64,000 bases of DNA from Macrostomum lignano (taxonomy: Eukaryota). A program made the translations under genes and the position numbers. The DNA is taken from assembly GCA_002269645.1 (NCBI GenBank), contig NIVC01002768.1:1-64000 (forward strand). Direction: 5' to 3'. The notes under the pieces were generated by a model, which saw only the letters and a program-made list of their open reading frames with translations, did no database searches and had not been told where the DNA came from. This document shows positions 1 to 23,611 of the stretch, one piece after another (the first letter of the stretch is position 1; each line of letters opens with the position of its first letter).

Positions 1-302
1 AGTATATAAAAAGACGCTTCTAGACCCAGAGCACTTTTTTAATTACCGTTTTTAAGGGTCTAGAGGGGGGACACGGGGTAAATAAAAAAACACATCTAAA
101 CACCATTAATACATCTAATCACCCATAATCACCCCTAACAATAAAAATCACTTCCCAACACTTCCAAACACTCCCCAACACCCCCTCGCGTCCCCCCTCT
201 TAAGACCTTACAAACGGCCATTAAAATAAGGTCTGATCTAGAAGCGTCTTTTCTATACTACTACTCTATAACCCCTTGCCCGCGCCGCAGGCGCGAAGGG
301 TC
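1..302 (+). repeat. Left terminal inverted repeat of Polinton
   Basis: Matches the reverse complement of 17626-17933 with about 6 substitutions and a few homopolymer indels (by eye). Confidence 0.95.
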
Positions 303-442
303 GGAAAGAATAGAAGCTATTTATAGTCAGCTCACCTACCCACCCAACATTCCATTTAGACCAGATTTTAGACCAAACAAAACTAGACTATCGTTTTGGT
401 TTTCGTTTTCAAAAATTTGGTCTAAAATCTGGTCTAAATGGA

Positions 443-879
443 ATGCAGACAATCTTTTTGTTACTAAAAATAGAACAAAAAATGACACACGTTACACATA
501 TGCAAAATCTGAATGAATTGCAGGTAGGAGACCCAGTTGAATACCGAGGTGAGGGGCTTTTTGATGTGGTTGGAACAGCAGCAAATTTTGTTAAAGACAA
601 TATGGGGCTTATAGGGCAAGCTGGCTCTGCAGCAGGCTCTATAACAAATGCTGTAAAAGGAGGAATTGAAGCAGCTAGAGCGGCAGAAGAACTAAAGAAA
701 TTGAGAGATTTTAACGACACCCTCTCACAAATAAATGCAATAAAAGATTTAAAGCTGGCACAAGCCGCACAACCAACAGAAACCCCACGAAAAGCGCACC
801 AATAAGTAATAAAGATATTCAGGATTTTAATAAAATGTTAAATACTATTAAAGGTGGAAAAGGATTAAAGAAATTTTAA
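443..879 (+). CDS. Small putative virion core protein (one apparent frameshift near 795)
   Basis: ORF 443-805 is Gly/Ala-rich and amphipathic. Adding one A in the AAAA run extends it to APISNKDIQDFNKMLNTIKGGKGLKKF* (879). Contains GEG/KGG motifs resembling protease sites. True start may be 482 or 500. Confidence 0.5.
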
Positions 880-889
880 CAATATAAAA

Positions 890-1873
890 ATGGACTCAGT
901 TAATGATGATGAAACCGGTTATATTTTATAGGAGAAATTGTAGATACTTTAGATCTTGATGATAATAAGCAAACCACACACATGTTAAAAAGATTGGATC
1001 GATTAGGTAAAAAGTTTGACTACGACATCGATACATTTAAACTCGCAGCAAAATATGCACAAGAAGGAAGGCCAATATCCTTTAAGAATCGCGGCAGAAA
1101 TTATAGGTTGACAGACTCCGATGTGAAATTTTTAATGGAGACTCACACTAAAAAGGACGGCGGATTACTACCCATTCTACCGCTTCTTTTAGGACTTGGC
1201 GCAGCTGGAGCAGTCGGTTTAGCCGGAAAAAGAATTCATGATAATGTAAAACAGCTAGGAGAGTTAAGAGCGAAACAGGGGGGAATCTTGCCCCTTGCAG
1301 CTTTGCTCCAATAATTTTTGCAGGAATTGGAGCAGCTGGAGGAGTTGCTGGCGGAGCAGCTGGAATTGCAAAAGCAGTAAATGACAAAAAAGCTGCGGAC
1401 GAAAAAGCTAAAAGAGAGGCCGAATTTCAAAGACAGCAAATAACGCAGGACGCACAATTTAAACAAAACTTATCGATACAATTAATAGTAGTTCAGCAAC
1501 AGCTGAGCAAAAAAGAAATGCAGAAGCTAGGTTATCAGCTGGAAAAGGTTTACTAAGGATCAAATCATGGCAATGGTTTACTAAAAGGAACAACCCAAGG
1601 AAGTGGAGTTGTCGCAGATAAACTACATGAATTTGGCAAACTTTAGAAAAAACGGGAGAGAAAGCTAAAGGATTTTTTGACAATATTGGATCCAATTTTA
1701 GACCAGCTGTTCAGAAAATTTTTAATAAATTAGGAAAAGATTTTAATATCATTGAAAAACACGACGGAAGCGGATTATATCTCGAAATGAGACCAAAAGC
1801 AGGTTCAGGAATTTTCTTAAATTCAAACGTTATGGGCAATGGATTGCTATTACCAAAAGCAGATCTCGAATAG
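890..1873 (+). CDS. Adenovirus protein X-like core/membrane-active precursor, broken by several single-base indels
   Basis: Two GG|(L/I)LP hydrophobic segments (DGGLLPILPLLLGLGAAG; QGGILPLAALL[P]IIFAGIGAAGG) resemble adenovirus pX GG|xLP. Downstream frames give repeated GxG motifs (GSGLYL, GSGIFL, GNGLLL). Start ATG at 890 follows TATAAAA. Confidence 0.55.
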
Positions 1874-1957
1874 GCTCCTGGGGGGAGGGTCTGGACACCA
1901 AAAACACAAAATTAAAAAATCAATAATTCAAACATTATATAAATTTTATTCTATAAA

Positions 1958-4900
1958 ATGGAAGCAATTTTAGCTCAAATCGACAACCCTGAACTTAGAG
2001 CACAATTAATAGCTCAAATCGATGCACAACGAATTGCCGATAGGGCTGAAATAGAAGCAAGAATTAGGGCAGAAAATGAGATACGTTTAGAAAGACAATT
2101 AAATGATATTAATAACCCCAACCACAAGGACAAAATGGAGCTGAAGTAATATATATAGATATAGATATAAATACAAATTATAAAGAATATTTTAAACAAA
2201 TGAAAGATAAATTAAAGACTATTAAACAATTATACTATAAGGCCAAATAACAAACGACAGCCAATTAAGTATAAAATAGAAGTTGAAACAGAATTTAAAA
2301 AACCAAATATTCTTAATGCAAATTCAGAAATTGAAGTAATAAATAACTTTTCACAAGAATCATATAAAACATTATTATCAATGGGAAATTACAACAATCA
2401 ATTCGATCAAATAGAAGCTGAGTTTGATGAATGGATAGATAAGATGACAGAAAACGGATCTGGGTTTATATTTGTATTCATGTAATTCAGCAATAGTAAA
2501 GATTGCACCTATAGAAATTCTTAAAGGACGATCACATATGAAGCTCAAATTTAAATCACCTATGATTATAAATCCAGACAATAAAGATAATAAATGTTTA
2601 TTATGGTGTTTATTAATTCATAAATATCACAATCAAGTAGAATCACACATTAATAAAATATATAATTATAGACAATATGAGGATGAAATAATAATGAAAA
2701 ACATATCATACCCAGTAGCAATAGATGATATATATAAGATTGAAAAAATGAATGGTTTAAATATTAATGTGTTTACAATTGAAGAACCAAAAGATCTAGA
2801 AGAAATTTTAACCGATCCAGAATGGTATAAGAAAAGGTGTTATCTTGTTAAGCCAGCAACTGATATAACAGCACCAGATCAAATCGATCTTTTGTACATG
2901 CAGCGCGAAAATGAAACACATTATATATACATAAAAGATATTAGTTCTTTTTTAAGAGAAAATAGAAATAGATATCCACTATGTAGAAATTGTTTTACAT
3001 TTAAAAAGGATGAAACAGCTCTTAAAAACCACCAACGATTTTGTTTAGATCACAAATTTACTAATGCTATAATGCCAGCATCTGAAGATGCAACCCTAAA
3101 GTTCCAACAACATTATATGGCAGTTAAAAAACCAATAGTAATATATGCTGATTTTGAAGCAACAAATGTTCCCTTAAAAGAATCACAGACGGTATCTGAT
3201 GATGGGGAATGCACAAAAAAATTGGCACAACAGTTTCCGAATAGTTATTGTATATATGTACACTCTGTAGCTGATCATATATTTAAATCAAGGATGATTA
3301 CTTACCACGGTAATGATGCAGCTAAGCACATGGCAGAATCATTAGTAAATGTATTTGAATATATTCAAAATCAATATGATAAATTATCAAAAAATATTAA
3401 TATGACAAATAAGGATAGAGACAATTATAAAAATGCAACAAATTGTTTTATGTGCAAAAGATATTTAAGTAAGAAAAATAAGATACGAGAACATTGTCAT
3501 CTAACAGGAAATTATCGAGGGGCAGCATGTAGATCATGTAATGCAAAAGAAGGAAAAGGATGTAAGGAAATACCAGTATTTTTTCATAATGGTTCCGGAT
3601 ATGATTTTCATTTCTTAGTTCGAGAATTGCTTCATTTAGGAAAGGATGAATATGAAATAAATATATTACCTAAAACATCAGAAAATTACATATCAATAAC
3701 ATATGGTAAGAAATACTCCCATCTAGTTTTTCTAGATTCCTTGAGATTCTTATCAACATCTTTAGCAAATGTTGTTTCATCATTAGTTCCAAAACCATGG
3801 GATTTAGAAATAGTAAAGAAAAACTTTCCAATACTATTGAATCGTTTCAAAAAAGAAAAACTATCCGAGGAAGAACTAATGCTATTAACTCGTAAGGGCA
3901 TCTATCCATATGAATATGTAACATCTGAAGACGTATTTTTTCATACCGAATTACCCCCATTGAAAAGTTTTATTCAACATTATCACAAACAAACATAAGT
4001 GAATCGGATTATGAACACGCTCAAAAAGTATGGAAATACTTTAATTGTAAAACATTTAAAGATTATCATAATCTATATCTTAAAGCAGATGTTCTCCTAT
4101 TAGCTGATGCATTTGAAAACTTTAGGAATCATACATATGAGAATTTTAAAATTGATCCCGCATATTGTTTCAGTGCACCGGGATTAACATGGGCTTGTGG
4201 TTTGAAACATACAGATGTTAAGATTGATTTACTAACTGATCATGATATGTTGTTAATGATTGAGAGAGGAATTCGCGGCGGATTCTCGGGTGTACTAGGA
4301 GATAGATATACTAAAGTAAATAATAAATATCTACCAAATTATAATAAAAAAGAAAAATCATCATATGTATTATATCTAGATGCAAACAATTTATACGGTG
4401 GTTGTATGAAACAAAAATTACCAATAGCTGATTTCCAATGGGAAGATGACCCCGATTATTACAAAAATATTCCCGAAGGAAGGGGCTGTATCGTAGAAGT
4501 GGATTTGCAATATACTCGGGAAGCAAAAGCAAAAACATATAAATATCCTTTAGCTCCAGAGCATTGTTCAGTTAATGAAGATGATTTATCACAAACACAA
4601 AAAGATTATCTTAAAGCAGATAATGCAAAACATCTAGCAACAAAAAAATTAATATTAAATTTACATGATAAGAAAAACTATGTAGTGCATTATAAGCTTC
4701 TACAATTTTATGAAAAGCAGGGATTAAAAGTGTCTAAAGTACATCGAACAATATCGTTTATTGAGGAAGATTGGTTAGCTAAATATATTGACTTTAATTC
4801 AAATCAGAGACAGATGTCAAAAACAAATTTTGAGAAAGATTATTGGAAATTAATGAATAATGCTTTTTATGGAAAAACGGTTGAAAATATTAGAGATAGA

Positions 4901-5920
4901 ACCCAATTCCATTTAGAAAAGGATATTGATAAAGCAAAGAAATATTTCTCAAAACCTAACTTTAAAGACTTTATAAAATTTGATGATAACTTTATGGGTA
5001 TTCATATGAGAAATAAAACAACAAAATTTCTTAAACCAATATTTATTGGAATGGTTGTTTTAGATTATGCAAAGCTGGTAATGTATGAATATTATTATGA
5101 TGTTATAAATAAAACATGGCCAGATAACTATCCAATATATGCAGACACCGACAGTTTGGTATTTAAGGTTGAAACAGAGGATCGGGCAAAGCCCGCGAAC
5201 CAAAGGTTCGATGTCTATAAAGATATGGAAAAAATTAAGGATACACTGGATACCTCCGACTATCCGGATAACCATCCTTTAAAATCAGATCAAAATAAAA
5301 AAGTTGTACTTAAAATGAAAGATGAATTAAATAGCAAAATCATAACCGAGTTTATAGCAATAAGATCAAAATGCTATGCATTTAAGGTTTTAGGACAGGA
5401 GGGAGAGGTAAAAAAAATAAAAGGTGTATCAAGAGCAGCAGTAAAAAAGATAACATTTGATGATTATAAAAACGTACTTTTAGATTACCTTAATACAATT
5501 GAAAATTATCATGCTCCACAATATCGATTAAATTCAGATAAGCATCAGATGTTTGTCATCGAGACAGATAAAAAAACATTAAGTCCATTTGATGATAAAA
5601 GATATTTAGATGATAAAATTAAAACATATCCATATGGTTTAAAAGAAGAGATAAAAAATATGATAAAAGATAAAAAACAAAAAGAAGATATAATAAGTAA
5701 ATATAATGAATACAAAGCGGCAATAAATAATTATTATTACGATTGTGATTGTGAATCCGAATGTGATTGTGAATATAATACATTTCTAGAATATGAAAAA
5801 GATATAGATAATTATTATTCAACATTTCCAAAAGAACTTAAAAAATTAAATAAGGAAAAAGTCTTGAATAACTGGAAGAGATTAACAGAAAAATTACTTA
5901 TCGGGTCTGTAAAAAACTAA
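1958..5920 (+). CDS. polB: Protein-primed family B DNA polymerase (pPolB), interrupted by frameshifts at about 2134, 2228, 2472 and 3957
   Basis: Motifs: ENGSGF (N-terminal region), CxxC...EHCHLTGNYRGAACxxCN, exonuclease FHNGSGYDFHF and FLDSLRFL, RKGIYPYEY, A YLDANNLYG, B KLMNNAFYGK, C YADTDS. Region 3960-4200 reads through in a shifted frame (IEKFYSTLSQTNISESDYEHAQKVW...). The 1958 start is inferred by frameshift repair. Confidence 0.93.
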
Positions 5921-6253
5921 AGCATGTAATTGTTTGAGCAAATCATTAACTTCAATTTCATATATTATTGAGCACCAATTATCCTCACAGTCGGCAGGGT
6001 AACTTAAACAATCCTTTATTTTTTTCCTAAGTTTTTTTATTTTTCTAACCAATCTATCTATTTCAATTTCAATTACTATTTCAGCATAAACAATATCTTG
6101 TCTTAAAAAACGTTTTCTTTTATCTATCTCATATCGGATGGGAAACATATCGTCCCCATACTCATGATATTTCTGAGATATAATTATATTTATTTTTTTA
6201 TTAATATCATTAAGTTCACGCTCTTTAGTGATAAGGATTTTTATCGTATCCAT
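5894..6253 (-). CDS. Hypothetical Polinton accessory protein (119 aa)
   Basis: Open ORF, tightly packed between viral genes; no recognised motif. Confidence 0.5.
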   Translation of the reverse strand: MDTIKILITKERELNDINKKINIIISQKYHEYGDDMFPIRYEIDKRKRFLRQDIVYAEIVIEIEIDRLVRKIKKLRKKIKDCLSYPADCEDNWCSIIYEIEVNDLLKQLHALVFYRPDK

Positions 6254-6281
6254 TTTCTTATAAAAAATTTAGTCTTCGTCG

Positions 6282-6635
6282 TCATCCTCCCAAACAAGCC
6301 AATTTTACAGTCCTATCACTCTTTTTATTATTTGTTTGTTTTAGTTTAAATTGCAATCCACCCTCGTTGCAGTATTTCATAACAAACGCTTTAGGTTTAT
6401 TAATAACTAAAACAGGAAAATTTTTAACATCATCTCCGCTTAGACATAAAATTTTTTGCCCATCTAATTGTAAAAATATTGATTGAAGCCCAATAAATTT
6501 AACCTGTCTCAAACATATAATATTATATTCTTTATTCTCCAACATATTGGGTGTGAGATAATTAATCACATTAGAATCGGTTTTGAACCAGCTCTCCATT
6601 TTTAATCTAAAAAAATAAAAAAAAATGAAAGACAT
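6282..6635 (-). CDS. Hypothetical Polinton accessory protein (~105-117 aa)
   Basis: Open ORF; probable start at MESWF after TAAAAATG. Confidence 0.5.
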   Translation of the reverse strand: MSFIFFYFFRLKMESWFKTDSNVINYLTPNMLENKEYNIICLRQVKFIGLQSIFLQLDGQKILCLSGDDVKNFPVLVINKPKAFVMKYCNEGGLQFKLKQTNNKKSDRTVKLACLGG

Positions 6636-7137
6636 TTACGAATGTAATAAATGTAATGTGACTATGCACAGAGGGCAAACAGCAAACGGAGATATATATC
6701 ATATGTGTTATTCATGTTCTAAAATATATCAATTTGAAAAAACAAAAAAGATTGAAAACTCATATTACTATTTTAAAAACACAATTTTAAGAAATCTTAC
6801 AAGAGACATTTCTGATCCAATTTTAATTCCCGGAAATAATGTTTATTTATATAATAACTTTTTCCATTTAAATAAAGGAAAGGGATTAAGTTCGAAAGAC
6901 TCTGAAAGGATTTTAATTTTAGTTGGATATTATTTCAATTTTCTTATTCGAGAGAATACAAAGTTTATAAGGATAGGTAACATACCTAACGAAATGTTAT
7001 TGAAAAAGTCATTGGAATTTTTATGTATTGATAAAAAATTTAAACCTAGGATCAGAAGAGAGTTACCACTTTGGGAAGAAAATATAACATATGCATTAAA
7101 TAAATTAAACAACATTAAGTTCTACAGCACTTCCTGA
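6625..7137 (+). CDS. Hypothetical protein with N-terminal C4 zinc ribbon
   Basis: CNKC...CYSC; ATG follows an A run. Confidence 0.55.
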   Translation: MKDIYECNKCNVTMHRGQTANGDIYHMCYSCSKIYQFEKTKKIENSYYYFKNTILRNLTRDISDPILIPGNNVYLYNNFFHLNKGKGLSSKDSERILILVGYYFNFLIRENTKFIRIGNIPNEMLLKKSLEFLCIDKKFKPRIRRELPLWEENITYALNKLNNIKFYSTS

Positions 7138-7760
7138 CCGCGGACTTTGTGCCCCAGTAGCAATAGTTTCAGGTTCGTAAATGCCTAATGTTTCTATAGG
7201 TGGAGCTTTGGGTTTATCGAGTCTCAACTCTTTTAATTCCATATCGGTAAAAGTTTCAACATCTAAAATTCTATTTCTATCTTTTAAATATTTTTCATAT
7301 AATTCAACCGCGGTTGATAATTCATGAATCGTTATCTCTCCGTCATCCAATATTTTTTGCACATATAAATATAATTGATTTTTATATTGCTTGGCAACAT
7401 CTCTTAAAGATTTATATTTTTCCTTTCTTTTTTTAAGATATAATTTAATTGCTAAAAGTATTGATAAGTTCTGATCAATTCAAAACCTGATATTGAGCCA
7501 ATTGAAATACCTAAAAATAATTGAGATAAATTAAGAGTTGGAATAGATTGTAAAATACCTAAAACGATTACACATAACATTGATAAGCTTCCAAATCCAA
7601 TATTGAAAAAATCCATATTTCTTATATGGTTTGAAACTCTTCTTACTTTTTTAGTATATAAATCATAATCATAATTTATTCGATCAACATTACTTAACAT
7701 CTGACCTTTACGTTGGTTGAACCGGTCGCGTTCCCATTTATCTGCTTCAGATACCGACAT
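7105..7760 (-). CDS. Putative membrane protein (two hydrophobic helices plus ILDDGEITIHEL motif), frameshift near 7470
   Basis: ORFs 7452-7760 and 7105-7362 join through the frame LSILLAIKLYLKKRKEKYKSLRD...VQKILDDGEIT. Confidence 0.55.
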
Positions 7761-8071
7761 TCTCGTCTATTTTTAATAGCACCAAAATGAATTCCCCACG
7801 CTCTTTGGGATTTGCCCGAGCTTAATAGGTATTGTATTGGAGTTATTCTTTCTTTTTTCTCCCATTTAAATCCTATTTTCCAAAACTCTTGAAGTATAAT
7901 ATGATTTTTTAATAACTTAATTAATTCTTGAAGCTTCTTATTATCCTGAACATTTACAGTACTAAATAAAAATTTGGTATGAGATTTGAATGTTTTTATA
8001 TTTGATTCTTGTTTAGGAATAGGAATAATAACATTATTTTGCCGCATCGATGGAGTTCTACTAAAAGCCAT
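7694..8071 (-). CDS. Hypothetical Polinton protein (125 aa)
   Basis: Open ORF with CTATATAAAATG start context. Confidence 0.5.
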   Translation of the reverse strand: MAFSRTPSMRQNNVIIPIPKQESNIKTFKSHTKFLFSTVNVQDNKKLQELIKLLKNHIILQEFWKIGFKWEKKERITPIQYLLSSGKSQRAWGIHFGAIKNRRECRYLKQINGNATGSTNVKVRC

Positions 8072-8141
8072 TTTATATAGAAATATTTAATATTATAACG
8101 CGTATTTCGATACGATTTTGGTTCGCGACTTAGCTTTAGCC

Positions 8142-10186
8142 TTAGGCGATTTCGGTTTGTGGCCGTTCCAAATATGCGGTCGCAGCAAAATCATATCCTG
8201 CTGATGTGCTACCACAAACGGCTGCACCACGAATAAAATGTGCGGCATCTGCTCCTCCAGTTCGAGCACCAAAACCCATAAGAGTTCCCGTTTTATCTAA
8301 ATCTCCCCAAGTTCCACTATCATATGTAAAAAAGTTTTGCCCAATTAGCGTATATGTATTAGCTGATACATTGTATGTGCTTATTTGATACCAAACTCTT
8401 TGATTTAAAATATTAATTTCAAAAAGATGCCAATCGCCGTTATCAATATTAGCATAGGTTATAGTTTGATCTGCGTCATTAAGAACATCATTACGAGCTG
8501 TTGCACCGTCTGATTTTATATTGCTCCAAACAACCCCAACTCTATCATGCCATTCACTCGCAAACACAATCAAGCCGGCGCGGGTTGTTAACCCGGATCC
8601 AAATTCACTTGTTGGACGTTCGTGACAATATGCATAAAACCAAACCGCATCAGCACCATTCCTGTAGCATTAGCAACTCGGAAATAGAAGGAGGCGGAGA
8701 TATTACGAAAATGGGTGAAATTAAATTGCAACGCTCCAGACTGACCACTTGCTTCATCAGTAATTCTAGCTCCATTTTGATAATCAATATAAGTAGCGCT
8801 ACCAACAAAACTTCCAGTTGGAAAAATATCACCGGCTGTGGTTGGGTTTTGATATCCAGTCCAATTGCAAATTACAGGCTCGTACAAAGCGGCATCGATT
8901 GCAGGTATTCCATCCAATTTTATTTTATCGTTAAAAGACATTCGGCCATCCGCCGTTTGTGTTACTCGCGTATCAACATAACCTTTAGTAACAACAGAAC
9001 TGTTATTGTTTATAGTAGAGATATTAGTAATTGTATTACCTCCCATATCAATTGATTGATTAACCACTCCCAAATTTAAATCAAGAATTGTAAACGTCTG
9101 TCTATAAATCTGGAAGGTTGACAGACCCGGGTTGGTTGAACCCGAGGTTGATGTAAGACAGAACAATCTGAAATATGAATATGTTTTATCAAAATTTTGT
9201 GTGACATTAATTGTTTGAGTTGAGTTATTTATTGCTACAGAACTATCCGCAGGTATTAATACGTCCCAACTTGTATTGTCATTACTTCCCTCAAATCGCC
9301 ATGATGCTGGGTGCTCGGTTGAAGGTGATGGCCTACCACGTAAATCAATTTTATAACACATTATTGCGGAAGGGCATTGGACTTGAATCCAATAATCGGT
9401 TTGAGTATTATTTGTTGCCCAATCTGTTGAATCATTTCCATCAAACGCTTTCCAACTTGCAAAATCAGTTGTATTAAATGCAGTGCTTGCGGTTATTGCA
9501 AAACCATTTCCACTCCAATCTGCCATGGTAGGTATGTGACCAGTTTCAACCGTTTGGAATCGATCTTGTTTTGGGGCTCCACCCCCAACTAAATTATCAA
9601 CCTCCGTTTTGGTATAGGAATCAGTTATATCTCTTTTTAAATTTAAGGAATTATCAACTTCAGTTTTGCTATAAGAATCAGTTATATCTCTTTTTAAATT
9701 TAGGGAATTATCAACTTCGGTTTTGGTATAGGAATCAGTTATATCTCTTTTTAAATTTAGGGAATTATCAACTTCAGTTTTGGTATAGGAATCAGCAACA
9801 TTCCGTTTTAAATTTAGGGAATTATCAACTTCGGTTTTGGTATAAGAATCGGCCGTATTGCGTTTTAAATTTAATGAATCATCTATTTGAGTTCGAGAAT
9901 AAGAATCAGTTATATCTCTTTTTAAATTTAACCCATTGTCAACCTCTGTTTTTGTATATGAATCGGCTACGTTCCGTTTTAAATTTAGGGAATTATCTAT
10001 TTGAGTTTTGGTATAGGAATCTGCAACATTTCTTTTTAAATTTAGTTTAGTATCAACTTCACTTTTTTTATAACCTTCATCTTCATTAATATATCGGTTA
10101 TCTCCGAATGTAACACTTATTCCACCAGAAGTACCACCACCAGTACTTGATGTTCCGTTCCATGAGGGTGTTCCAGAAAATAACAT
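8142..10186 (-). CDS. Fibre/receptor-binding protein: 19-aa repeat shaft, F5/8C discoidin-like domain and L-type lectin-like domain; frameshift near 8658
   Basis: Eight and a half YTKTEVDNSLNLKR(D/N)xxDS repeats. Discoidin-like AFDGNDSTDWAT...WIQV...WRFEGSND. One added A joins the C-terminal ORF via GNGADAVWFYAY...WHLFEINI (concanavalin-like). Confidence 0.7.
9592..10072 (-). repeat. 57-bp coding tandem repeat (fibre shaft)
   Basis: About 8.5 copies of the 19-aa unit. Confidence 0.9.
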
Positions 10187-10196
10187 TTTTTACTGT

Positions 10197-10636
10197 CTAT
10201 TTTATAGAGTCTAAAATCATCTTAAATACTTCGGGGTTTACACGAGCTTCATTCGAAAGTCGATATAAAAAATACAACGCCGCTTGCCCGCAATAACTTT
10301 TATCAAAGGTTTGAAATTGTTCGTGATGATCTCCACATAAACGATTTTTAGTATGATTAAATTTATCTTTTATTTCCTGTAACGGAGGAAGCGCGTATGA
10401 ATCAAAAAAATAAACAAGTTTTGGTTTTGAATAAACTGCTGACCAATGAACACCATTTTCTTTTGTTGTTTCAATATTAACAATGAAACATCCATATTGT
10501 GGTAAGTCTTTGATCTCATCTCGCATAACACATCTGAATGGTTTTATTTTTAACTGCCTCGCCCAATTTGTTAATTCGATATTGCTTGTTGTGTCCGTTC
10601 CATATCTTGTTTAAAATCATCCCACGTCATGGTCAT
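10197..10636 (-). CDS. Adenain-like cysteine maturation protease, frameshift near 10600
   Basis: Catalytic H (GVHW), D (FFDSYA), Q and C (QTFDKSYCG). N-terminal TSNIELTNWARQL lies in the same frame upstream of the listed ORF. Confidence 0.88.
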
Positions 10637-10637
10637 T

Positions 10638-10844
10638 TTATGTTCCTGAAAAACTCTTGGTTTTAGTTAGTTTCGTAGGTGTGGGTTTTAACAATTCCTT
10701 TCTTATTTTATCAGCTTGTAACTGCCTTAATTTTGCTAGTTCTAGTTCGTAATTATCTTCAGCTTTTTTAACTTTTTCTGATTGTTTTTTTATTAAATTA
10801 TTATTATCGTGCTTTGCACGCGAACATGTTGTTCGATTACCCAT
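10638..10844 (-). CDS. Small basic coiled-coil protein
   Basis: Start MGNRTT after AAAAATG; Lys-rich; contains one hairpin module in frame. Confidence 0.45.
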   Translation of the reverse strand: MGNRTTCSRAKHDNNNLIKKQSEKVKKAEDNYELELAKLRQLQADKIRKELLKPTPTKLTKTKSFSGT

Positions 10845-10888
10845 TTTTACTATAGGAAACGGACAAAGTCCGTGAACCAAAGGTTCGA

Positions 10889-11673
10889 TCAAACCTGTTT
10901 TATACGTAAAATTATTGTTATTGATTGCCCACCAAAACTTATTAATCTATCGCTTTCATCTACAATCCTAATATAAATTGATTGAACGCTATATTGATTT
11001 AAAGGATAATATATTGGGGTTTGGGGTGCAACAATCATTTTCTCTCCAATTGGAACAGCAAGAAATGGGATTGAATAAATAATTCCACGTTGAACCAAAA
11101 CTCCGTTATCGTCTGTTATATAACCACCGTTTGAAATGTCGGTTGTTATATTAATTGTATTTACTCCACCCTCTATATTTCCAACTGTATCACCGGTGCT
11201 TGATGTGGTAACTATTCGGGAATTAAATCCAAGTATGGTTCTGAGTGAATTTGCAATTGTGAAATCAACCTGATATCCGGATCCTAGTGATAGTGTGAAT
11301 CTGCCAGACGGTAAATCAACACCTATAACAATTGCTCCTGCTACCCAATCACCATTAGTTGTTAATTCTCCTTCTATATAAGCATTCAAATCAGTATAGC
11401 TATACGCTCCTGGGTAACGCTAAATGTTGTCCAATTGGCTCCGGAATCTTTAGAATATCTAAATTGATTATTTGTTGCATTAATTAATTGAGGCATGTTG
11501 AAAACCGAAAATAGTATTAAACCTATTTGATAACTTAGGCTTTGATCAAGTTGTAATGGATCGCGCAATTGAATCCGTTGCTCGCTGGTTGTCATTATAA
11601 ACTGTAATGTTGTACTAAATTTTGAATTAGTTCGATCTACCAATTGTTTTATAGTATTTAAATTTGTAGTCAT
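10889..11673 (-). CDS. Minor capsid protein (penton, single jelly-roll), frameshift near 11413
   Basis: One added C gives VTPGAYSYTDLNAYIEG. Typical Polinton mCP features: LRTILGF, INITTDISNGGY, PIYYPL, IRIVDESDRLISFGGQSITIIL. Confidence 0.85.
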
Positions 11674-11790
11674 TTTTATAGTGGGAAATTAATCGGACGA
11701 AGTCCGATCGTTCCGAAGGTACGCGTGCTATGCACGATCGAACGAAGTTCGCGACCCTATGGGGGGGCGATCGTACCGAAGGTACGCGTG

Positions 11791-12591
11791 CTATGCACGA
11801 TCCTCTTCTTCCTCATTATCTTCTTTTATCAAATTTGTTAAAATTCTATGTTTCCTTTCTAACCTCGGATTGATATAAATATGTTTGTATTGGCTATCAT
11901 CCCAAATTTTTTTACACATACTTTTAAATGGTTTTGCATCCAACCCAGGATTAAATCTAGCGTGTATATTTTGTAAATCATAATTATCTAAATCAAACAT
12001 TACACAACAACTTGCATTCTTTTTTATAATCGATTCTAATTCTCTAAAGGATTGAGTAAGATAAAAAGCTCCAATTCCATCTCCTCTACCACTAACAAAA
12101 ATTTCCTTTTGCAATTCTTGATCACCGTCATTAATACAATCATCAAAAATAATTAGTGTTTTATCATGTTTTGGAATTTGATCATAGGCTAATCGGGTTG
12201 ATACTCTAACAGTTGGGGCTCGATCGGACGAAGTCCGCGACCCTTCGGGGCGATCGGTGATGTTTTCTGGCTGTTGTGCCATTGTTTTACATAAATCCTC
12301 AATGTCTGCTAGATTAAATCGCGGTTCGTCATCATCCTCATATTGCTCATATGCTCTTAACATTCTAAACAAGACATCTTTTTTTAATTTGTTTTTTAAT
12401 CCATGTTTAAGAAATTCATAATATTTTATTCTAGGTTTATTAGTATAAATTATTAAATTATTATAGTCTAACATTCCATCTGTTGTTAATAAATCGTAAA
12501 CAAAGTGTGTTTTTCCTTTACCTGATCCTCCGATTACTAAACAAAGAAAAGGATCATTTGGAAATATTTTATTGTGTTTTGCCTTTACCAT
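11791..12591 (-). CDS. A32/FtsK-family DNA packaging ATPase
   Basis: Walker A GGSGKGKT, Walker B LIIFDD, and SGRGDGIGAFYLTQS. Confidence 0.92.
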   Translation of the reverse strand: MVKAKHNKIFPNDPFLCLVIGGSGKGKTHFVYDLLTTDGMLDYNNLIIYTNKPRIKYYEFLKHGLKNKLKKDVLFRMLRAYEQYEDDDEPRFNLADIEDLCKTMAQQPENITDRPEGSRTSSDRAPTVRVSTRLAYDQIPKHDKTLIIFDDCINDGDQELQKEIFVSGRGDGIGAFYLTQSFRELESIIKKNASCCVMFDLDNYDLQNIHARFNPGLDAKPFKSMCKKIWDDSQYKHIYINPRLERKHRILTNLIKEDNEEEEDRA

Positions 12592-12675
12592 TTTTAAAGA
12601 AATAATTTAAATAGGCGCGACGGTCGGAGACCTGCGACACTAAAGTGGTGCGACGTGCTTTGCACTGCACTCATT

Positions 12676-14148
12676 TTACAATGGTGCGTCCCGAACAATC
12701 GTGCCATCAGCTTTAGCAATTGACATATATTCCTCTAGAAACAATACGTGGGCGTCAAGTGCCTGATTACCGGTTTTATTAATCTCTAACATATAATTAA
12801 GTCCAATATTGGCTACGTTTTCTTTCTGTGCCGTTAGATCATAAACAACCACTGGATGAATGTTTAGAAACTCTGTGGGTGTGTACTGAGGGACGGCATA
12901 CGCTTCATTTTTAGCATAATCTTGATAATATTTTATAAAATCATTAACATTATTATTTGCTATATTTAAATTTAGGGGGTCTTTAACCGGATAATATTGA
13001 TCATCAACCTGCAGGCGGATATTCTGAACATTAAACTCGTTAATAGCTGCAGCCGCATTGTCTGTTGCGGTGGCTGCTTGTTCTGCTATGGCACCGGATT
13101 GAAGCCAATATAAATCCCCATTTGCTCTTTTACTCCTTCTATTTGTTATCTTAAACCAAACAAAAATATATCTCACCCGACGTTTTGATGTCAGTATTTG
13201 CCACTGGAATGAATCCTGGTTATTATTAATGGTTCGCATAAAATGTCGACGATTCAAATAAAATATTTCCTGATCATGCGTTAACTGATTATCGATGTGT
13301 TTTAAAAGTGGGGCTGTTACCTCAATAGTTGGTACGACTAATTGAATTGAATCTATACGAACTGCTATATCGGTTGAAATTGAGGTTCCATAAAGTATCC
13401 TAGGCTGATATCCACCAGATATTTGCAACTGTATCCCAAATTTTAATCCTTTCCATACCCGATTTGGTGAGAAGAACCCAAATAGCGGGAAGATTGAAAA
13501 GTCCTGCTCATATGCTGTTGCTGTGGTTAAAACCGCGACTGGGAATTTATTCTGACGATCTATAAAACCAGTATTAATATCTTTTGTATTAGTCATAGTG
13601 GTTACAACTGGAACTATGTTTGTATTAAGGTAAACAATTAGCGCTGCAGTATCTGCACCGGCTGCGTTTTGTACATTAGGGAAAACTACTGCTTGACCGT
13701 TACCTTTATCCGGCATCCACCCAACATTATCACCAACTTGTTTTGATAAATAAGTATAATTTAAATGTTTCAAAACTCCATTAATCTCTGCGGGGTTTGA
13801 TGATGTCTCAACCTCAGCACCATTAACAGTTAGTTGAGCTTGGGAAAAACATTTATAAAACCAATCATTTTCTATTATTATTCCGGATCGATCTGCGATA
13901 TCTCCGGCTGCAAGAGCAGTTCCATCATTTCTAGTATATAACCATCTAACACGGAAAAATGCATTTTTCATATCCAATATAGTGTTGGTTGCGCCGATGT
14001 CAAAAGTTACCGTTCCAGTAGTAAAGTTATTTGAATTATCACTTGTTGGTAGGGTATAATTTAAATCTCTTGCTCTGACCTCATTAATATACTGTCGGTG
14101 CTTTTTGAAATGAAATTTATCACTCCACATAGTTTTTGTTTCAGCCAT
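12676..14148 (-). CDS. Major capsid protein (double jelly-roll, hexon-like)
   Basis: Intact 490-aa beta-rich ORF next to the ATPase and mCP; Polinton MCP-like segments (QAQLTVNGAEVE, LQVDDQYYP, PVVVYDLTAQKE). Confidence 0.85.
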   Translation of the reverse strand: MAETKTMWSDKFHFKKHRQYINEVRARDLNYTLPTSDNSNNFTTGTVTFDIGATNTILDMKNAFFRVRWLYTRNDGTALAAGDIADRSGIIIENDWFYKCFSQAQLTVNGAEVETSSNPAEINGVLKHLNYTYLSKQVGDNVGWMPDKGNGQAVVFPNVQNAAGADTAALIVYLNTNIVPVVTTMTNTKDINTGFIDRQNKFPVAVLTTATAYEQDFSIFPLFGFFSPNRVWKGLKFGIQLQISGGYQPRILYGTSISTDIAVRIDSIQLVVPTIEVTAPLLKHIDNQLTHDQEIFYLNRRHFMRTINNNQDSFQWQILTSKRRVRYIFVWFKITNRRSKRANGDLYWLQSGAIAEQAATATDNAAAAINEFNVQNIRLQVDDQYYPVKDPLNLNIANNNVNDFIKYYQDYAKNEAYAVPQYTPTEFLNIHPVVVYDLTAQKENVANIGLNYMLEINKTGNQALDAHVLFLEEYMSIAKADGTIVRDAPL

Positions 14149-14182
14149 TTTTTTAAGTTAAAAAAGTTTTTTATGTTAAAAA

Positions 14183-14854
14183 ATGAGTCAATTTATGGAC
14201 GTTGATGGAGAGTTAGCGATTTATAAAGAGAAGCAAAGATATTCTGATTTTGTTAGAAATTTACAAAAAAGAAAGTTAGGAATACAATTAGCTGGTGAAA
14301 GATTTGCTGCTCCTTTTGTTAATCCTATTACTGGGAAAATTAGTGAACTAGAAAAAACAGATAAAGATCTTCTGGAAAAAATTGCTAAAAATACGGAGCC
14401 AAAAGAGGATGAAATTTTGGATGAGCCGCCAGCTTATGATGTTGATCAAGCTCAATTGAGAGTTGCAGAGATTAGGGCTGCAGAAAGGGGTGGAGTTGAT
14501 GAATATCCGAGAGCTGCACCAACTAGTATTGCTGTGACAGATTTAGGTAATAATAATTATCGAATTGGTGGAGTTGATAAAAATCGAAATGAACTATATA
14601 GAGAATTGGGCGGAGCATATAATATTGTTATGAACCCTAGGGTAAAATTTAACCCTGAATTATATACTAGGGATGAATTAGTAAGTGCAAAAATTTTTTA
14701 TGATGAGTTGGGAGTAAGAGCTGCTAAAAATACCAGCTTGTATAAAAGGATTGTTAATTCTATAAATAACAAACCAGCTGTTGGAGAAGGATTTAAAACA
14801 CCGCGAAAACTTGTTTTAGCTGCTGCGAAAGCTGCTGGACATACTGGAGTTTAA
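14183..14854 (+). CDS. Hypothetical conserved-type Polinton protein (223 aa)
   Basis: Intact ORF divergent from the MCP gene; ends near a GEGF motif. Confidence 0.6.
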   Translation: MSQFMDVDGELAIYKEKQRYSDFVRNLQKRKLGIQLAGERFAAPFVNPITGKISELEKTDKDLLEKIAKNTEPKEDEILDEPPAYDVDQAQLRVAEIRAAERGGVDEYPRAAPTSIAVTDLGNNNYRIGGVDKNRNELYRELGGAYNIVMNPRVKFNPELYTRDELVSAKIFYDELGVRAAKNTSLYKRIVNSINNKPAVGEGFKTPRKLVLAAAKAAGHTGV

Positions 14855-14881
14855 TTAATTGTTAAATTTATTTTTTATAAA

Positions 14882-15484
14882 ATGGAACCTAAAAAGATTT
14901 GTATTAAGTGTAAACAAGAAAAACCAATGACGAAAGAATTTTATTTTTGGAGAAATGATTCAAAAAAATTTAGAAATGATTGTCGATCTTGTCATAATAC
15001 CTCATCTACTATTTGGATGAAAAACAATAAAGATAAATTTAATGAATATAGAAAAAACAAGTATCACAATGATGATAATTACAAACATATTGTTTTAATT
15101 AGAAATAGAATAAATTGGGCGTTGAAAAATTTTAATGACAAGGACTATATCTCATATCTTGATTGCACAAAAGAATTCTTTTTTGATTGGTTAAATTTCA
15201 CAAGAAAATATTATGTTTCAAAAGATTATACTGGAAATTTAGATATTGATCATTTCATTCCCGCTTCTTCGTTTAGTTACAAAGATGAAGATCAGATGAA
15301 AAAGTCTGAACATTGGACAAATAAAAGATACTTAACTAGCGTAGATAATAACTATAAAAAAGTTAAACAACCAACCATTGAAGAGTTTGCAAAACAATTG
15401 GTGCTATCATGTATTTTTAAGGCTATTAAAAATGAGCAATCATGCGACGCATGCGAACCGAAGGTTCGACCAATTAGTATTTGA
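14882..15484 (+). CDS. Free-standing HNH (His-Me finger) homing-type endonuclease with N-terminal CxxC...CxxC zinc ribbon
   Basis: CIKC...CRSC, then DIDHFIPASSF...HWTNKRYLTSVDNNYKK (DH...N...N core). Intact, with its own TATAAAATG start. Confidence 0.8.
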   Translation: MEPKKICIKCKQEKPMTKEFYFWRNDSKKFRNDCRSCHNTSSTIWMKNNKDKFNEYRKNKYHNDDNYKHIVLIRNRINWALKNFNDKDYISYLDCTKEFFFDWLNFTRKYYVSKDYTGNLDIDHFIPASSFSYKDEDQMKKSEHWTNKRYLTSVDNNYKKVKQPTIEEFAKQLVLSCIFKAIKNEQSCDACEPKVRPISI

Positions 15485-17042
15485 AGGAGGATTTTTAGAC
15501 TTACAAAAAGGATTAACAAGCTTACCACCAATATTTACTACTGGGAGGTATACGGGTGAGCTACACCTGCCATCAATGAACTTCACAGGTTATCCCGTGG
15601 CCTGAGTGGTAGAAGCAAAGCTACTGCTAGTCACTATTAGTGGCGATGTCTCCAAATTGCGTGAAACCCGTCATACAGCTTCAAGTACCACTTCAATTGA
15701 GAAATCTTTTGAAGGAACAGAGGTAACTCCTCTTCCCAAAGGTAACAAGCTTGAAGACATGGTGGCAATGCGCAGCCAAGCTCCTAAGTATTTTAAATAT
15801 AAGGAGAAGGTTCAGAGAGCAGACGGAGATGGGCGGTAATTATCGCCGCTTAAGGTGTGCTCCAGCCTCTTTCGAAAGATTGAGGGTAAACTACCCGGCA
15901 CTCGCTTAGATTTGAGATTAAATCCTGACAATACTCCAAAATCTGATTCAATTCCAATAAATGGGATTGATTGGTTAGCATACTATCACGACTTAGCATA
16001 TAGAGATGCTGACAAGAACCCGCCCGAGGAAGCATTAAGATTAAAACATGAAGCCGATCAAAAAATGATTCAAGGATTAGATAACTTGCAGGGATTATCG
16101 GTAGGTCAAAAATTAACTAGGTGGATGGTTAAAAAGATCTTGCAGTCTAAAGTTAAATTTGGTTTGGGAATTAATTATAATCAACATGGAAATAATTGTG
16201 TTGAGTGTTTGTTGTTAAGTGGCGGCGGGTTAAGTTCTGATGAGGCAAAGATTCTTCATAAAGAATATCGAAAACCTAAATTTTATAGAAAAATCATGAA
16301 CTTCAAAAAGAATGAAATTTGGTATGCTGATTTAATGTCGATGCCGAACGAAAGAGGATATAAATATATCTTAACCATATTAGATGGTTTTACTCGATAC
16401 GCGTGGGCTGTTCCTTTAAAATCCAAAAAGGGAGAGGAGGTTGCTGCTGCTTTTAGAAGTCTTGGAGAAAAAAGTGAAAGGTTGTGTGTTGACGAAGGAA
16501 AAGAATTTTACAATCCTCACATGTATAAATTGTATCATTTTGAAAAAGGAAAAGAAAGGAAAAAAGACGCGAATGGGGAGTATATTAATAAAATTTATTC
16601 TATTTATGGAGAGAGTAAAAACGCATTAATAGAAAGATTTAATCGAACTTTAGGTAAGAAATTATGGTTTCAGTTTAGTCTTAATGGTAACCAAAAGTGG
16701 GTAAAAATATTACCAGACGTAGTGAAAGATTATAACAATTCATATCATTCGGCGATAAAGATGACTCCTCAACAAGCTTATAACAATCCTGAAAATGTTA
16801 GGGTTACTTTTGGAGATTTTGAAAAAAAGAAAACTAAAGGTTTTAAGGTTGGTGATTCTGTTTATATCTATAAATGGAAAGATAAGTTTGAAAAGGGAAG
16901 AAAAGGATATTGGAAAATAAGTGAGAAATTTACCATCAGTAAAGTTTTAAATACAAATCCTACAACCTATATAATTGCTGATAAGGATGGTGAAGAAATA
17001 TTGGGTTCTTTTTATGAGAACCAGATAATGTCTGCGAACTAA
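15432..17042 (+). CDS. Parvovirus-type PLA2 / retroviral-like DDE integrase fusion; join(15432..15590,15894..17042)
   Basis: Splicing restores GELHLPSMNFTG|PGTRL and links it to the PLA2 YYHDLAY...EAD. Integrase WYADL, LCVDEGKEF and IERFNRTL supply D,D,E; C-terminal FKVGDSV is SH3-like. Confidence 0.9.
15591..15893 (+). ncRNA. Group I self-splicing intron (303 nt, IC1-like with P5abc, ORF-less)
   Basis: P1 CAGGU/GCCUG with U.G at the 5' splice site. P3 UGUCUCC/GGAGAUG, P4 UUGCGU/GCGCAG, P5a CUUCAAG/CUUGAAG, P6a CUCCU/AGGAG, P7 GAGAGCA/UGCUCC, P8 GGCGGU/AUCGCC, P9 with a GAAA loop. Removal restores the conserved PLA2 motif in frame. Confidence 0.92.
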
Positions 17043-17052
17043 GTTCAAACAG

Positions 17053-17277
17053 TTACTTAAGACAACATGGTAGTAAATTTTTTATTACAAACAAAAACAA
17101 TATTATTACTATAATTGTTACTAATATTATTATTGACATTTGTTCAACTGTTATCAAACTTAAATTTTCATTAAGTTCATTAATTGGAACATTTCCGATG
17201 TAGGAATAGTTTACCTTCATTTTTTTATATATATTTTTCACAATAAATGTCGTTTCTGTTATAGAATAATAGTTCAT
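17053..17277 (-). CDS. Small single-pass membrane protein
   Basis: C-terminal hydrophobic stretch IIILVTIIVIILFLFVI. Confidence 0.45.
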   Translation of the reverse strand: MNYYSITETTFIVKNIYKKMKVNYSYIGNVPINELNENLSLITVEQMSIIILVTIIVIILFLFVIKNLLPCCLK

Positions 17278-17293
17278 TTTTTAAATATTTTTT

Positions 17294-17608
17294 TCACATA
17301 AATATTTCACTTTCATTCTCTGAATCACTGGTTTCATATGAACTATTTGTTGATTCGGAATCTGTTGATTTAACCTCCCAATCATCCGAATTTAAATAAT
17401 CTCCAAGTTGAAATATTAACTCACCCTCTTGTTCTAAATCATACATCTCATCTAGCTCTAATGGATAAAGTTTTAGGTCGTGCTTGTCGTCATATTTTAA
17501 ATAAACTTCATCAATTATTCCATTCAAAATATGTTGTTTTATTATCTCTGCATTTTTAGCAACAGTCTCAAAAGTATCACTAACAGAAAAGGTGTAAACT
17601 CGGGTCAT
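17294..17608 (-). CDS. Small acidic protein
   Basis: Open ORF adjacent to the right TIR; Asp/Glu/Ser-rich tail. Confidence 0.5.
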   Translation of the reverse strand: MTRVYTFSVSDTFETVAKNAEIIKQHILNGIIDEVYLKYDDKHDLKLYPLELDEMYDLEQEGELIFQLGDYLNSDDWEVKSTDSESTNSSYETSDSENESEIFM

Positions 17609-17625
17609 TTTTAGTAACAGAAAAA

Positions 17626-17933
17626 GACCCTTCGCGCCTGCGGCGCGGGCAAGGGGTTATAGAGTAGTAGTATATAAAAAGACGCTTCTAGATCAGACCT
17701 TATTTTAATGACCGTTTTTATGGTCTTAAGAGGGGGGACGCGAGGGGGGTGTTGGGGAGTGTTTGGAAGTGTTGGGAAGTGATTTTTATTGTTAGGGGTG
17801 ATTATGGGTGATTAGATGTGTTAAGGGTGTTTAGATGTGTTTTTTTATTTACCCCCCGTGTCCCCCCTCTAGACCCTTAAAACGGTAATTAAAAAAGTGC
17901 TCTGGGTCTAGAAGCGTCTTTTTATATACTACT
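17626..17933 (-). repeat. Right terminal inverted repeat of Polinton
   Basis: Reverse complement of 1-302 plus the terminal AGT; ends ...TATATACTACT. Confidence 0.95.
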
Positions 17934-18472
17934 AACGTACCTGTGCTCGAACGGTCGCAAAGCATGTCGATGTGGCTCATCTCGGCTGCATCCATCGCAT
18001 CGGCCATGATCACCAAGCCGGGCTCGCTGTCACACTTGGCCTTGCTCGGCTTCCAGAACTTAATTCCGGGGTACAGCTTGTACTTTGTCCCACAAAAGTC
18101 GTCGCCATAGCCAGAGGGACACAGAGCGCCAGCTCGAAGTCGTTGGTCCTCACGGTGGACGAACACGCGACCTCGCTTGCTGCAGTCGCAGTCGCGCACT
18201 TGCTTGCTGCACCGATCGAACACGAACAGCCGACAGACACGGGAGCTCGTAGCCGTCTCCATGGTGAACGCCTTGCACAGGGGCTCCGATCTGCACTGAA
18301 TGGAGCAGTCGAGCTCGGTGCGAGCTCGCGGCATGACTTTGACGAACTCGTCTCGGATGCACAGGAATCCTTCGATTGCGTTGAACTCGTCCTTCATGTG
18401 GCAGGCGCTCCCTGGAACCGGCCGAGTAGCCAGCATGAGGCCGAGGAGTGTCCGGAGCAGAGCCGGCCACAT
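17934..18472 (-). pseudogene. Secreted PAN/apple plus C-type-lectin-like protein, 5' part, interrupted by the Polinton
   Basis: Signal peptide MWPALLRTLLGLMLA. PAN-like CSIQCRSEPLCKAF...CRL; CTL-like start CPSGY...CGTKYKLY...W..SKAKC. The frame runs straight into the TIR at 17933. Confidence 0.65.
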
Positions 18473-22900: not shown

Positions 22901-23065
22901 GTAGGAGTGATAGCGGTTCCAGTCGGCCTTCTTCCAGGCCCAGGAAAACCTGGGTTCTTTGGCCAGGGCCGGGCGGATACCATGAATCGTGATAAGAATC
23001 GGCTTATGGTCAGAACCCAGCTCCGGCAGGACAGTCCAAGAGCACCGCCCAGCTAGGGATCTGCT
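19962..23065 (-). mobile_element. I-group LINE (APE C-terminus, RT, RNase H, CCHC), 5'-truncated, copy B
   Basis: LGSDHKPILI, YRPVSLTS, GVPQGAVCSP, FADD; RNase H YFTDGS, TDSQSA, WIPGH..GNERAD; CLRC...H..C. One frameshift near 21515; (CAA)n tail. Confidence 0.93.
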
Positions 23066-23583: not shown

Positions 23584-23611
23584 TTTTCGTTGTTGCTGTT
23601 GTTGTTGTTTG

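What the first reader, a model, noticed from the sequence alone, without database searches (positions are those of the whole stretch)
14882..15893. Free-standing HNH endonuclease next to an ORF-less intron: candidate collaborative-homing cassette in a eukaryotic virus
Seen: an intact Zn-ribbon plus HNH ORF (14882-15484) with its own TATAAAATG start ends 106 nt upstream of the intron insertion site and overlaps the first codons of the host gene. The intron itself encodes no protein. Established: in phages (e.g. the cyanophage S-PM2 psbA intron with F-CphI) a free-standing endonuclease cuts the intron-less allele, the intron protects its own allele, and both spread together. Inference: the same partnership may operate among Polintons, which would require co-infection or recombination between active viral genomes or integrated copies.
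Basis: partly seen in the sequence, partly recalled or inferred. Interest (0 to 1): 0.87.

Follow-up and report, generated by a model that had tools for sequence, protein, structure and literature searches.

The report
Intron shields virus from restriction enzyme
A family of viruses integrated in a eukaryote's chromosomes has purged a five-letter DNA word from its whole genome and splits the one copy it cannot lose with a self-splicing intron, apparently to survive a restriction-type enzyme that many copies carry; the HNH gene noticed first is an alternative tenant of that enzyme's gene slot.

Summary
A 17.9-kb Polinton carries an HNH gene (14882-15484) and an ORF-less group I intron (15591-15893) in the Gly|Pro calcium loop of a PLA2-integrase fusion gene.

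The HNH is probably not the intron's main partner. Among 139 sister loci in this genome, the slot holds the HNH (100; 3 lack the intron) or an Eco47II-like PD-(D/E)XK nuclease (37; all have the intron). In a second Polinton family and in one metagenomic contig, that nuclease sits inside the intron at the same site.

Eco47II is predicted to cut GGNCC, and the intron splits exactly GGT|CC. GGNCC is absent from three whole elements (0 against 12.4, 12.0 and 10.4 expected). It is the most depleted of about 9,000 words in both families, and it reappears at the junction in 13 of 13 intron-less loci. No methyltransferase was found.

Best reading: a restriction-type enzyme whose self-protection is site avoidance plus an intron. 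The HNH belongs to a giant-virus intron homing family; its target is unknown. Most family-1 introns end in A instead of G. Cleavage and splicing are inferred, not shown.

The parts
1..17934 (.). Polinton (family 1) with terminal inverted repeats 1-302 / 17626-17930; contains no GGNCC
14183..14854 (+). 223-aa gene of unknown function forming the left border of the nuclease slot
14876..14884 (+). TATAAAATG start motif shared with other element genes
14882..15484 (+). Slot gene, here Zn-ribbon + HNH endonuclease (C7/C10/C34/C37; D123-H124, N147, N156); replaced by an Eco47II-like nuclease in 37 of 139 sister loci
15432..15590 (+). Exon 1 of the PLA2-integrase fusion gene; its last 30 nt are the most variable window of the gene
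15441..15470 (+). 30-nt hairpin repeat, polymorphic insertion in the HNH/exon-1 overlap
15588..15590 (+). 5' part (GGT, Gly codon) of the only GGNCC word; its U forms the U.G pair of P1 with the guide sequence 15600-15604
15591..15893 (+). ORF-less group I intron, 303 nt; P7 15815-15821/15858-15863 with canonical G-binding pair; P9.0 15864-15865/15891-15892; terminal nucleotide A15893
15894..15895 (+). 3' part (CC of the Pro codon) of the split GGNCC word
15894..17042 (+). Exon 2: parvovirus-like PLA2 domain (PF08398, E 0.013, below cut-off) fused to rve integrase (PF00665, E 1.6e-7)

Best explanation
The cassette is a methylase-free restriction-and-intron system. These Polintons carry, or recombine with relatives that carry, a small Eco47II/EcoO109I-like endonuclease that cuts GGNCC (inferred). 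Instead of methylating, the elements have removed every GGNCC from their roughly 18-kb genome (shown). One site cannot be removed by synonymous change, because the Gly-Pro of the PLA2 calcium loop can only be written GGN-CCN. The group I intron splits it in DNA (shown) and restores it in RNA (inferred). When related genomes meet in a cell, intron-less ones are cut exactly at the insertion site and are lost or repaired from the intron-bearing copy, which is homing (inferred). Unrelated viruses and host DNA would be cut at many sites. In family 2 the enzyme gene lies inside the intron; in family 1 it lies free in the slot just upstream. The window's copy carries an HNH homing-type nuclease in that slot instead. 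It stays immune to the GGNCC cutter without producing it. The HNH most likely drives its own spread from a longer target close by, the hypervariable end of exon 1 being the best candidate, whether or not the intron is present (inferred, weak).
For: Slot occupancy HNH 100, Eco47II-like 37, unidentified 2 of 139; no locus holds both. The Eco47II-like gene is 60% identical to an ORF inside the intron at the same site in family 2 (25 of 25 fetched loci carry that intron, 11 with a 228-aa frame) and is intronic in metagenomic contig L171. PF09553 matches 23 of 23 aligned members, the first member below the cut-off. Best fold match EcoO109I, Z 9.8, rmsd 3.6, 166 aligned; Foldseek E 1.7e-4. An Eco47II homologue is predicted to cut GGNCC (PMC10305163 passage). 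GGNCC is 0 in the window element (expected 12.4; 0 of 1000 codon shuffles as low) but 134 in the 46-kb flank; 0 in a whole family-2 element (expected 12.0); 0 in a family-1 copy carrying the enzyme (expected 10.4). It ranks first of 8840 and of 9580 under-expected words in the two families. Gly-Pro occurs 0 times in 4325 aa, expected 6.8. The word sits at the junction in 3 of 3 and 10 of 10 intron-less loci. Controls: none of 45 other viral loci with expectation >=8 is below O/E 0.34, and an intron-less PLA2 locus has 9 against 8.9. Both giant-virus homologues examined have a C5 methylase next door; none was seen in the Polinton ORFs. Enzyme alleles show pN/pS 0.25. The splice-dependent PLA2 part shows pN/pS 0.09.
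Against: No cleavage or splicing was shown; the site is inferred from family and fold. No spliced joint appeared in 4 contig-only runs, and one contig spans the 3' splice site unspliced (RNA status is a guess, so inconclusive). Only 3 intron-less family-1 loci exist, so 0 of 37 enzyme-bearing intron-less loci is not significant by itself. A GGNCC cutter would be lethal to host chromatin, so it needs tight control that I could not see. Intron-less family-2 alleles persist in the same genome (10 loci). The slot is no more mobile on an integrase tree than nearby SNPs (0.71 against medians 0.44-0.68), so directional homing is not demonstrated. Copies are related and not independent; only two families are independent tests of avoidance. 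The methylase search covered listed ORFs only, and not every family-2 ORF was scanned.
Confidence: 0.7

Rival explanations
1. One reading: the HNH itself cuts the intron-less junction, the intron protects, and both home together. It could hold in addition to the best explanation.
For: 97 of 100 HNH loci have the intron. HNH-family members lie inside related group I introns of other viruses in 3 loci read in full, with family hits in 16 of 81 loci. Catalytic residues are conserved. Diversity peaks on both sides of the junction (pi 0.226 in the last 30 nt of exon 1; 0.134 and 0.121 in the first exon-2 windows). The 3 intron-less HNH loci have exon-1 ends unlike the window's, so they could be resistant alleles.
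Against: The intron is near fixation whatever fills the slot (37 of 37 with the other enzyme). All 3 intron-less loci carry an HNH, 2 of them intact and with a GGT end at the junction. HNH allele classes show no clean exclusion of exon-1 classes. GGNCC avoidance is not explained.
Confidence: 0.2
2. GGNCC avoidance and the intron are a defence against an outside enzyme, such as the Eco47II-like restriction-modification systems of co-infecting giant viruses; the Polinton's own copy is a captured, secondary passenger.
For: Giant-virus contigs encode Eco47II-like enzymes with methylases. HNH-bearing copies keep the avoidance without the enzyme.
Against: The Polinton enzyme is intact in 24 of 37 loci and under purifying selection. 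It sits in or beside the very intron that splits its predicted site, in two families and an unrelated contig.
Confidence: 0.12
3. Intron and nucleases are neutral or decaying passengers shuffled by ordinary recombination, and the A-ending intron is dead.
For: The whole region is mosaic. 83 of 112 type-A introns lack the terminal G. No spliced joint was seen. HNH pN/pS is 0.46-0.67 over most of its length.
Against: It does not explain complete GGNCC loss in two families. A-ending copies show pN/pS 0.088 in the splice-dependent PLA2 part and keep the P9.0 dinucleotide in 29 of 29 haplotypes against 9 of 15 G-ending ones (Fisher p 0.0007).
Confidence: 0.05

Closest known systems
Collaborative homing (cyanophage psbA intron / F-CphI; Zeng 2009, Bonocora and Shub 2009; seen only through citing passages in PMC11296320 and PMC2988022)
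   Same: ORF-less group I intron beside a free-standing nuclease aimed at the insertion site; the free-standing and the intron-encoded state both exist here for the same enzyme family.
   Different: Nuclear-integrated eukaryotic virus; the best-supported partner is a short-site restriction-type enzyme; two unrelated nucleases alternate in one slot; genome-wide site purge.
Type II restriction-modification, Eco47II family (PF09553); EcoO109I and AvaII folds
   Same: Family match, fold, and predicted GGNCC site; giant-virus homologues have a C5 methylase.
   Different: No methylase seen; protection by avoidance plus an intron; 160-170 aa minimal enzyme.
PacI (methylase-free restriction enzyme protected by absence of its site; PMC5714182 passage)
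   Same: Self-protection by site absence.
   Different: PacI is an HNH rare cutter in a bacterium; here a frequent cutter with one unavoidable site hidden by an intron.
PD-(D/E)XK intron homing endonuclease I-Ssp6803I (family named in PMC3943268 passages; long target recalled)
   Same: Restriction-enzyme fold encoded in a group I intron.
   Different: Long unique target against an apparent 5-bp site; other lineage and host gene.
Giant-virus group I introns with HNH/GIY-YIG enzymes (Bodo saltans virus, PMC5871332 passages) and group I introns of protist Polinton-like viruses (PMC12220804 passages)
   Same: Related intron core and HNH family; intron masking of a nuclease target proposed as a competition weapon.
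   Different: The Polinton-like-virus introns were reported only in protist hosts and without an annotated enzyme; no restriction-type enzyme or avoidance in the passages read.
Intronless homing / marker exclusion (SegF; Bacillus HMU phage intron enzymes; PMC2988022 passages)
   Same: Likely mode of the HNH: cuts a neighbouring gene of rivals and drags flanks along.
   Different: Target untested here.

Membership tests
Group I intron (RF00028) | Covariance-model score above the gathering threshold | tested here: met
   59.8 bits against 50
Group I intron (RF00028) | U.G pair at the 5' splice site in P1; P7 with G-C guanosine site | tested here: met
   compensatory P7 pairs against family 2 and L171 read
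Group I intron (RF00028) | Terminal G | tested here: not met
   A15893; 83 of 112 type-A copies end in A, 29 in G; all 25 family-2 copies end in G. Precedent: coral ND5-717 lacks the G yet ligates exons (PMC6545197 passage)
Group I intron (RF00028) | Splicing | tested here: inconclusive
   no joint in 4 contig runs; indirect support from selection
HNH (His-Me finger) endonuclease | beta-beta-alpha motif with D-H..N..N | tested here: met
HNH (His-Me finger) endonuclease | Significant match to a solved HNH fold | tested here: inconclusive
   top Foldseek rows are HNH domains but none has E<=0.001; Z 5.3 to Hpy99I covers residues 1-43 only
Collaborative-homing pair, HNH + intron | Nuclease and intron co-occur | tested here: inconclusive
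   97 of 100 HNH loci have the intron, but 37 intron loci carry another enzyme and all 3 intron-less loci carry the HNH
Collaborative-homing pair, HNH + intron | Nuclease cuts the intron-less allele only | not testable with these tools
   needs a cleavage assay
Eco47II family (PF09553), slot alternative | Profile and fold match with PD-(D/E)XK residues | tested here: met
   23 of 23 members hit, best E 2.6e-8, slot copy itself E 0.002 below cut-off; EcoO109I fold
Type II restriction-modification system | Cognate methyltransferase | tested here: not met
   none among ORFs examined; present beside 2 of 2 giant-virus homologues scanned
Type II restriction-modification system | Cleavage of GGNCC | not testable with these tools
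   avoidance statistics only
Polinton / alpha-adintovirus type | Terminal inverted repeats, rve integrase, A32 ATPase, PLA2-like gene, PolB, capsid | tested here: met
   repeats, integrase, ATPase and weak PLA2 hit; PolB and capsid labels rest on recalled motifs, size and position, not on a family hit

The most novel reading that the evidence does not exclude
Polintons of a probably animal host run a restriction system in which a self-splicing intron replaces the methyltransferase: a GGNCC cutter of giant-virus or bacterial type, genome-wide purge of the site, and a ribozyme masking the one site that coding forces. The same enzyme is caught both inside the intron and free beside it, competing with an HNH for one slot, and a group I intron ending in A is spliced from a nuclear protein-coding mRNA.
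Probability: 0.6. Interest if true: 0.93.

Novelty: new variant of a known kind. Interest (0 to 1): 0.86.

Why it matters
It shows a way for a restriction enzyme to exist without methylation, and gives a selective reason for an intron to become obligatory. [quoted passage not shown] It implies that integrated Polintons still meet, recombine and compete as viruses. A 2013 review says nuclear group I introns are found exclusively in rRNA genes of microbial eukaryotes (PMC3679873 passage). They have since been reported in protist Polinton-like viruses (PMC12220804), and here more than 150 fetched copies interrupt a protein gene in a probably animal genome. Natural A-ending and G-ending alleles of one ribozyme make 3' splice-site choice directly testable.

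Tried and rejected
Word-index search for HNH relatives: none. IMG/VR scan with the HNH: none. The exhaustive profile search found 2447. Pfam for the HNH: no hit. RNA evidence: no RNA holder on record; 4 of 23 listed runs laid, contigs only, no splice joint. Avoided word for the HNH: nothing beyond GGNCC stands out. Exclusion between HNH allele and exon-1 class: none clean. Slot more mobile than flanks: pairwise correlations hint at it (outer flanks rho 0.74-0.76, inner segments 0.43-0.65), but the tree test does not (20 changes against 25.4 shuffled, similar to nearby SNPs); not claimed. MFE folding of the intron is only z -2.2. An in-frame G nine bases upstream as the 3' splice site was considered; it lies in the P9 stem and P9.0 conservation favours the A, but it is not excluded. 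Other Polinton families of this genome as avoidance controls were not reached (the ATPase search returned only family 1). PLA2 profile against PDB: no significant hit. Earlier scan notes: none. Two primary papers were not held.

Full report
1. Observation. Bases 1-17934 form an AT-rich element with terminal inverted repeats of about 300 nt, an A32 ATPase and an rve integrase: a Polinton. PolB and capsid labels are from recalled motifs and size. Rfam finds a group I intron (59.8 bits). Intron-less sister alleles fix its bounds at 15591-15893. The host gene is a parvovirus-like PLA2 domain fused to the integrase, and the intron interrupts the G|P-G calcium loop (role recalled; PLA2X described in PMC8502044 passages). 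The host is a eukaryote with a 764-Mb assembly. An animal is likely but not shown: a flanking pyrophosphatase scores best with entries I recall as human and schistosome.

2. Sister copies. I fetched 160 loci from the top DNA hits (20 of 43 matches) and the PLA2 hits (150 of 500 candidates were scored). Ten were duplicates and 11 belong to a second family, leaving 139 family-1 loci. The 20 are biased towards HNH plus intron. Result: HNH 100 (80 with intron type A, 17 type B, 3 without intron; 2 are C-terminal remnants), a different 160-170-aa gene 37 (30 type A, 7 type B, none without), 2 truncated. The two genes use the same start motif and end at the host gene's start, and no locus holds both. 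I did not fetch the surroundings of about nine further HNH places.

3. The other slot gene. All 23 aligned members hit PF09553 Eco47II (the slot copy itself below cut-off). Its model (pLDDT 91) matches EcoO109I best (Z 9.8, rmsd 3.6, 166 residues; Foldseek E 1.7e-4; AvaII next). In family 2 a 60% identical ORF lies inside a related intron at the same site; all 25 loci fetched have this intron, ending in G. Metagenomic contig L171 shows the same nesting in another PLA2-integrase gene. About 11 of 18 aligned database homologues run on into intron-core-like sequence (read by eye). Two of two giant-virus homologues scanned have a C5 methyltransferase next door; none was seen in Polinton ORFs.

4. 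The site. An Eco47II homologue is predicted to cut GGNCC (PMC10305163 passages; the EcoO109I and AvaII sites are recalled as GGNCC-type). Gly-Pro can only be coded GGN-CCN, and the intron splits GGT|CC. GGNCC occurs 0 times in the window element (Markov expectation 12.4; codon shuffles mean 12.1, 0 of 1000 as low) and 134 times in the flank, and Gly-Pro 0 times in 4325 aa. It occurs 0 times in a whole family-2 element (12.0 expected; CCNGG 20) and in a family-1 copy with the enzyme (10.4 expected). It is the most depleted of 8840 and 9580 under-expected words in the two families (p 3.9e-6 and 2.6e-6). In the loci: 0 in 99 kb of enzyme-bearing and 3 (one locus) in 253 kb of HNH-plus-intron sequence, with 11 loci left out because of host DNA or insertions. 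It lies at the junction in 3 of 3 and 10 of 10 intron-less loci, and is absent from 24 of 25 intron-bearing family-2 loci. Against a perfect picture: intron-less family-2 elements have a second site near the left end, and one has a third. Controls: 45 other viral loci with expectation >=8 range from O/E 0.34 to 1.78, and an intron-less PLA2 locus has 9 against 8.9. CCNGG is also somewhat low in family 1 (10 against 18.1).

5. The HNH. Zinc ligands and D-H..N..N are conserved. PHROG endonuclease-VII/HNH hits and weak HNH-domain fold matches support the label. The family profile hits 16 of 81 viral loci (80 fetched by an intron motif, one by PLA2); in three read in full the ORF lies inside the intron (26-31% identity, so family level only). 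Alleles are 55-100% identical, with pN/pS 0.46-0.67 except the C-terminus (0.12). The last 30 nt of exon 1 are the most diverse window of the host gene (pi 0.226; exon-1 pN/pS 0.36 against 0.09). A 5-bp cutter cannot explain that, but a long-site enzyme could. I found no avoided word and no clean allele-exon exclusion.

6. Mobility. Copies with near-identical flanks differ in slot gene. Slot, intron type and terminal base change 20, 17 and 15 times on an integrase tree of 111 rows, but nearby SNPs are about as mosaic. Recombination is shown; directional homing is not.

7. The ribozyme. P1, P7 (with pairs changed on both sides relative to family 2 and L171) and P9.0 are present. 83 of 112 type-A copies end in A. 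These keep P9.0 in 29 of 29 haplotypes (9 of 15 for G), and their splice-dependent PLA2 part has pN/pS 0.088 (recombination may contribute). A coral mitochondrial intron without the terminal G ligates exons in vivo (PMC6545197 passage). No spliced joint was seen in 4 contig runs of uncertain RNA status.

8. Mechanism. Shown: anatomy, alternation of the two enzymes, the intronic state, avoidance, and the position of the site. Inferred: GGNCC cleavage, splicing, homing during co-infection or reactivation, degradation of host or rival DNA (as reported for chlorovirus enzymes, PMC5714182 passage), and silencing in the integrated state. Confidence 0.7.

9. Literature. Passages only were read, no whole texts and no supplements: PMC10748475, PMC8502044, PMC11296320, PMC12220804, PMC3679873, PMC6545197, PMC10305163, 10.64898/2026.10.13.758929, PMC2988022, PMC5871332, PMC5714182, PMC3943268. 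Zeng 2009, Bonocora and Shub 2009 and Shen 2010 were seen only as citations. Searches listed no paper on a PLA2 intron, an Eco47II-like enzyme or site avoidance in Polintons. Subscription journals are largely missing, and the supplementary tables of PMC12220804 could list related introns. Group I introns and free-standing nucleases in protist Polinton-like viruses are known, and collaborative homing has been speculated for this virus group.

10. Verdict. Real and more unusual than flagged, but with a different main partner: a new variant joining intron homing with methylase-free restriction. Interest 0.86.

Noticed in passing
window 15893; 112 type-A copies: The intron ends in A in 83 copies and in G in 29. 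A-ending haplotypes always keep the P9.0 dinucleotide (29 of 29 against 9 of 15), suggesting functional splicing without the terminal G.
   Followed up: partly
L063 about 1667-2000 and 23 other loci: A second intron type at the same 5' splice site shares peripheral helices with type A but has a different catalytic core (RF00028 30.7 bits, below threshold). Its 3' end is ambiguous, and no candidate G gives the plain G-P-G loop.
   Followed up: partly
window 5183-5212, 10860-10889, 12225-12254, 15441-15470: A family of about 30-nt hairpin repeats lies in several Polinton ORFs and, as similar sequence, in intron P5 of family 2; many family-1 introns are 30 nt longer. Resembles small mobile palindromic elements.
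   Followed up: partly
window 2538-5920, 10197-10526, 11386-11673: PolB is in two frames, and the protease-like and minor-capsid-like ORFs are shorter than in sister copy C77 (1324, 175 and 261 aa there); mutation or assembly error.
   Followed up: no
L085, L134, L102, L114: An acidic 153-155-aa ORF of unknown kind stands upstream of the HNH or its remnant; the two divergent intron-less copies have it.
   Followed up: no
L206/L208/L216 against L212: Intron-less family-2 elements are about 98% identical to intron-bearing ones downstream of the junction but have a different left end (about 70% in the repeat) with a second GGNCC, so they look recombinant at the junction.
   Followed up: partly
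L226, L287, L304, L271, L288: Giant-virus capsid and other genes with several related group I introns, some with the HNH family inserted in the P5 region.
   Followed up: partly
window 8588-10186: Fibre-like gene with eight 57-nt repeats and an F5/8 type C domain.
   Followed up: no
window 342-450: Perfect 30-bp-arm hairpin just inside the left terminal repeat.
   Followed up: no
window 19974-26126; 44574-45212; 48562-49607: Host flank: RT-RNase H retroelement, an inorganic pyrophosphatase exon and a TLC-domain gene.
   Followed up: partly
L116: An insertion of about 830 nt inside a type-B intron, not a nuclease gene by inspection.
   Followed up: no
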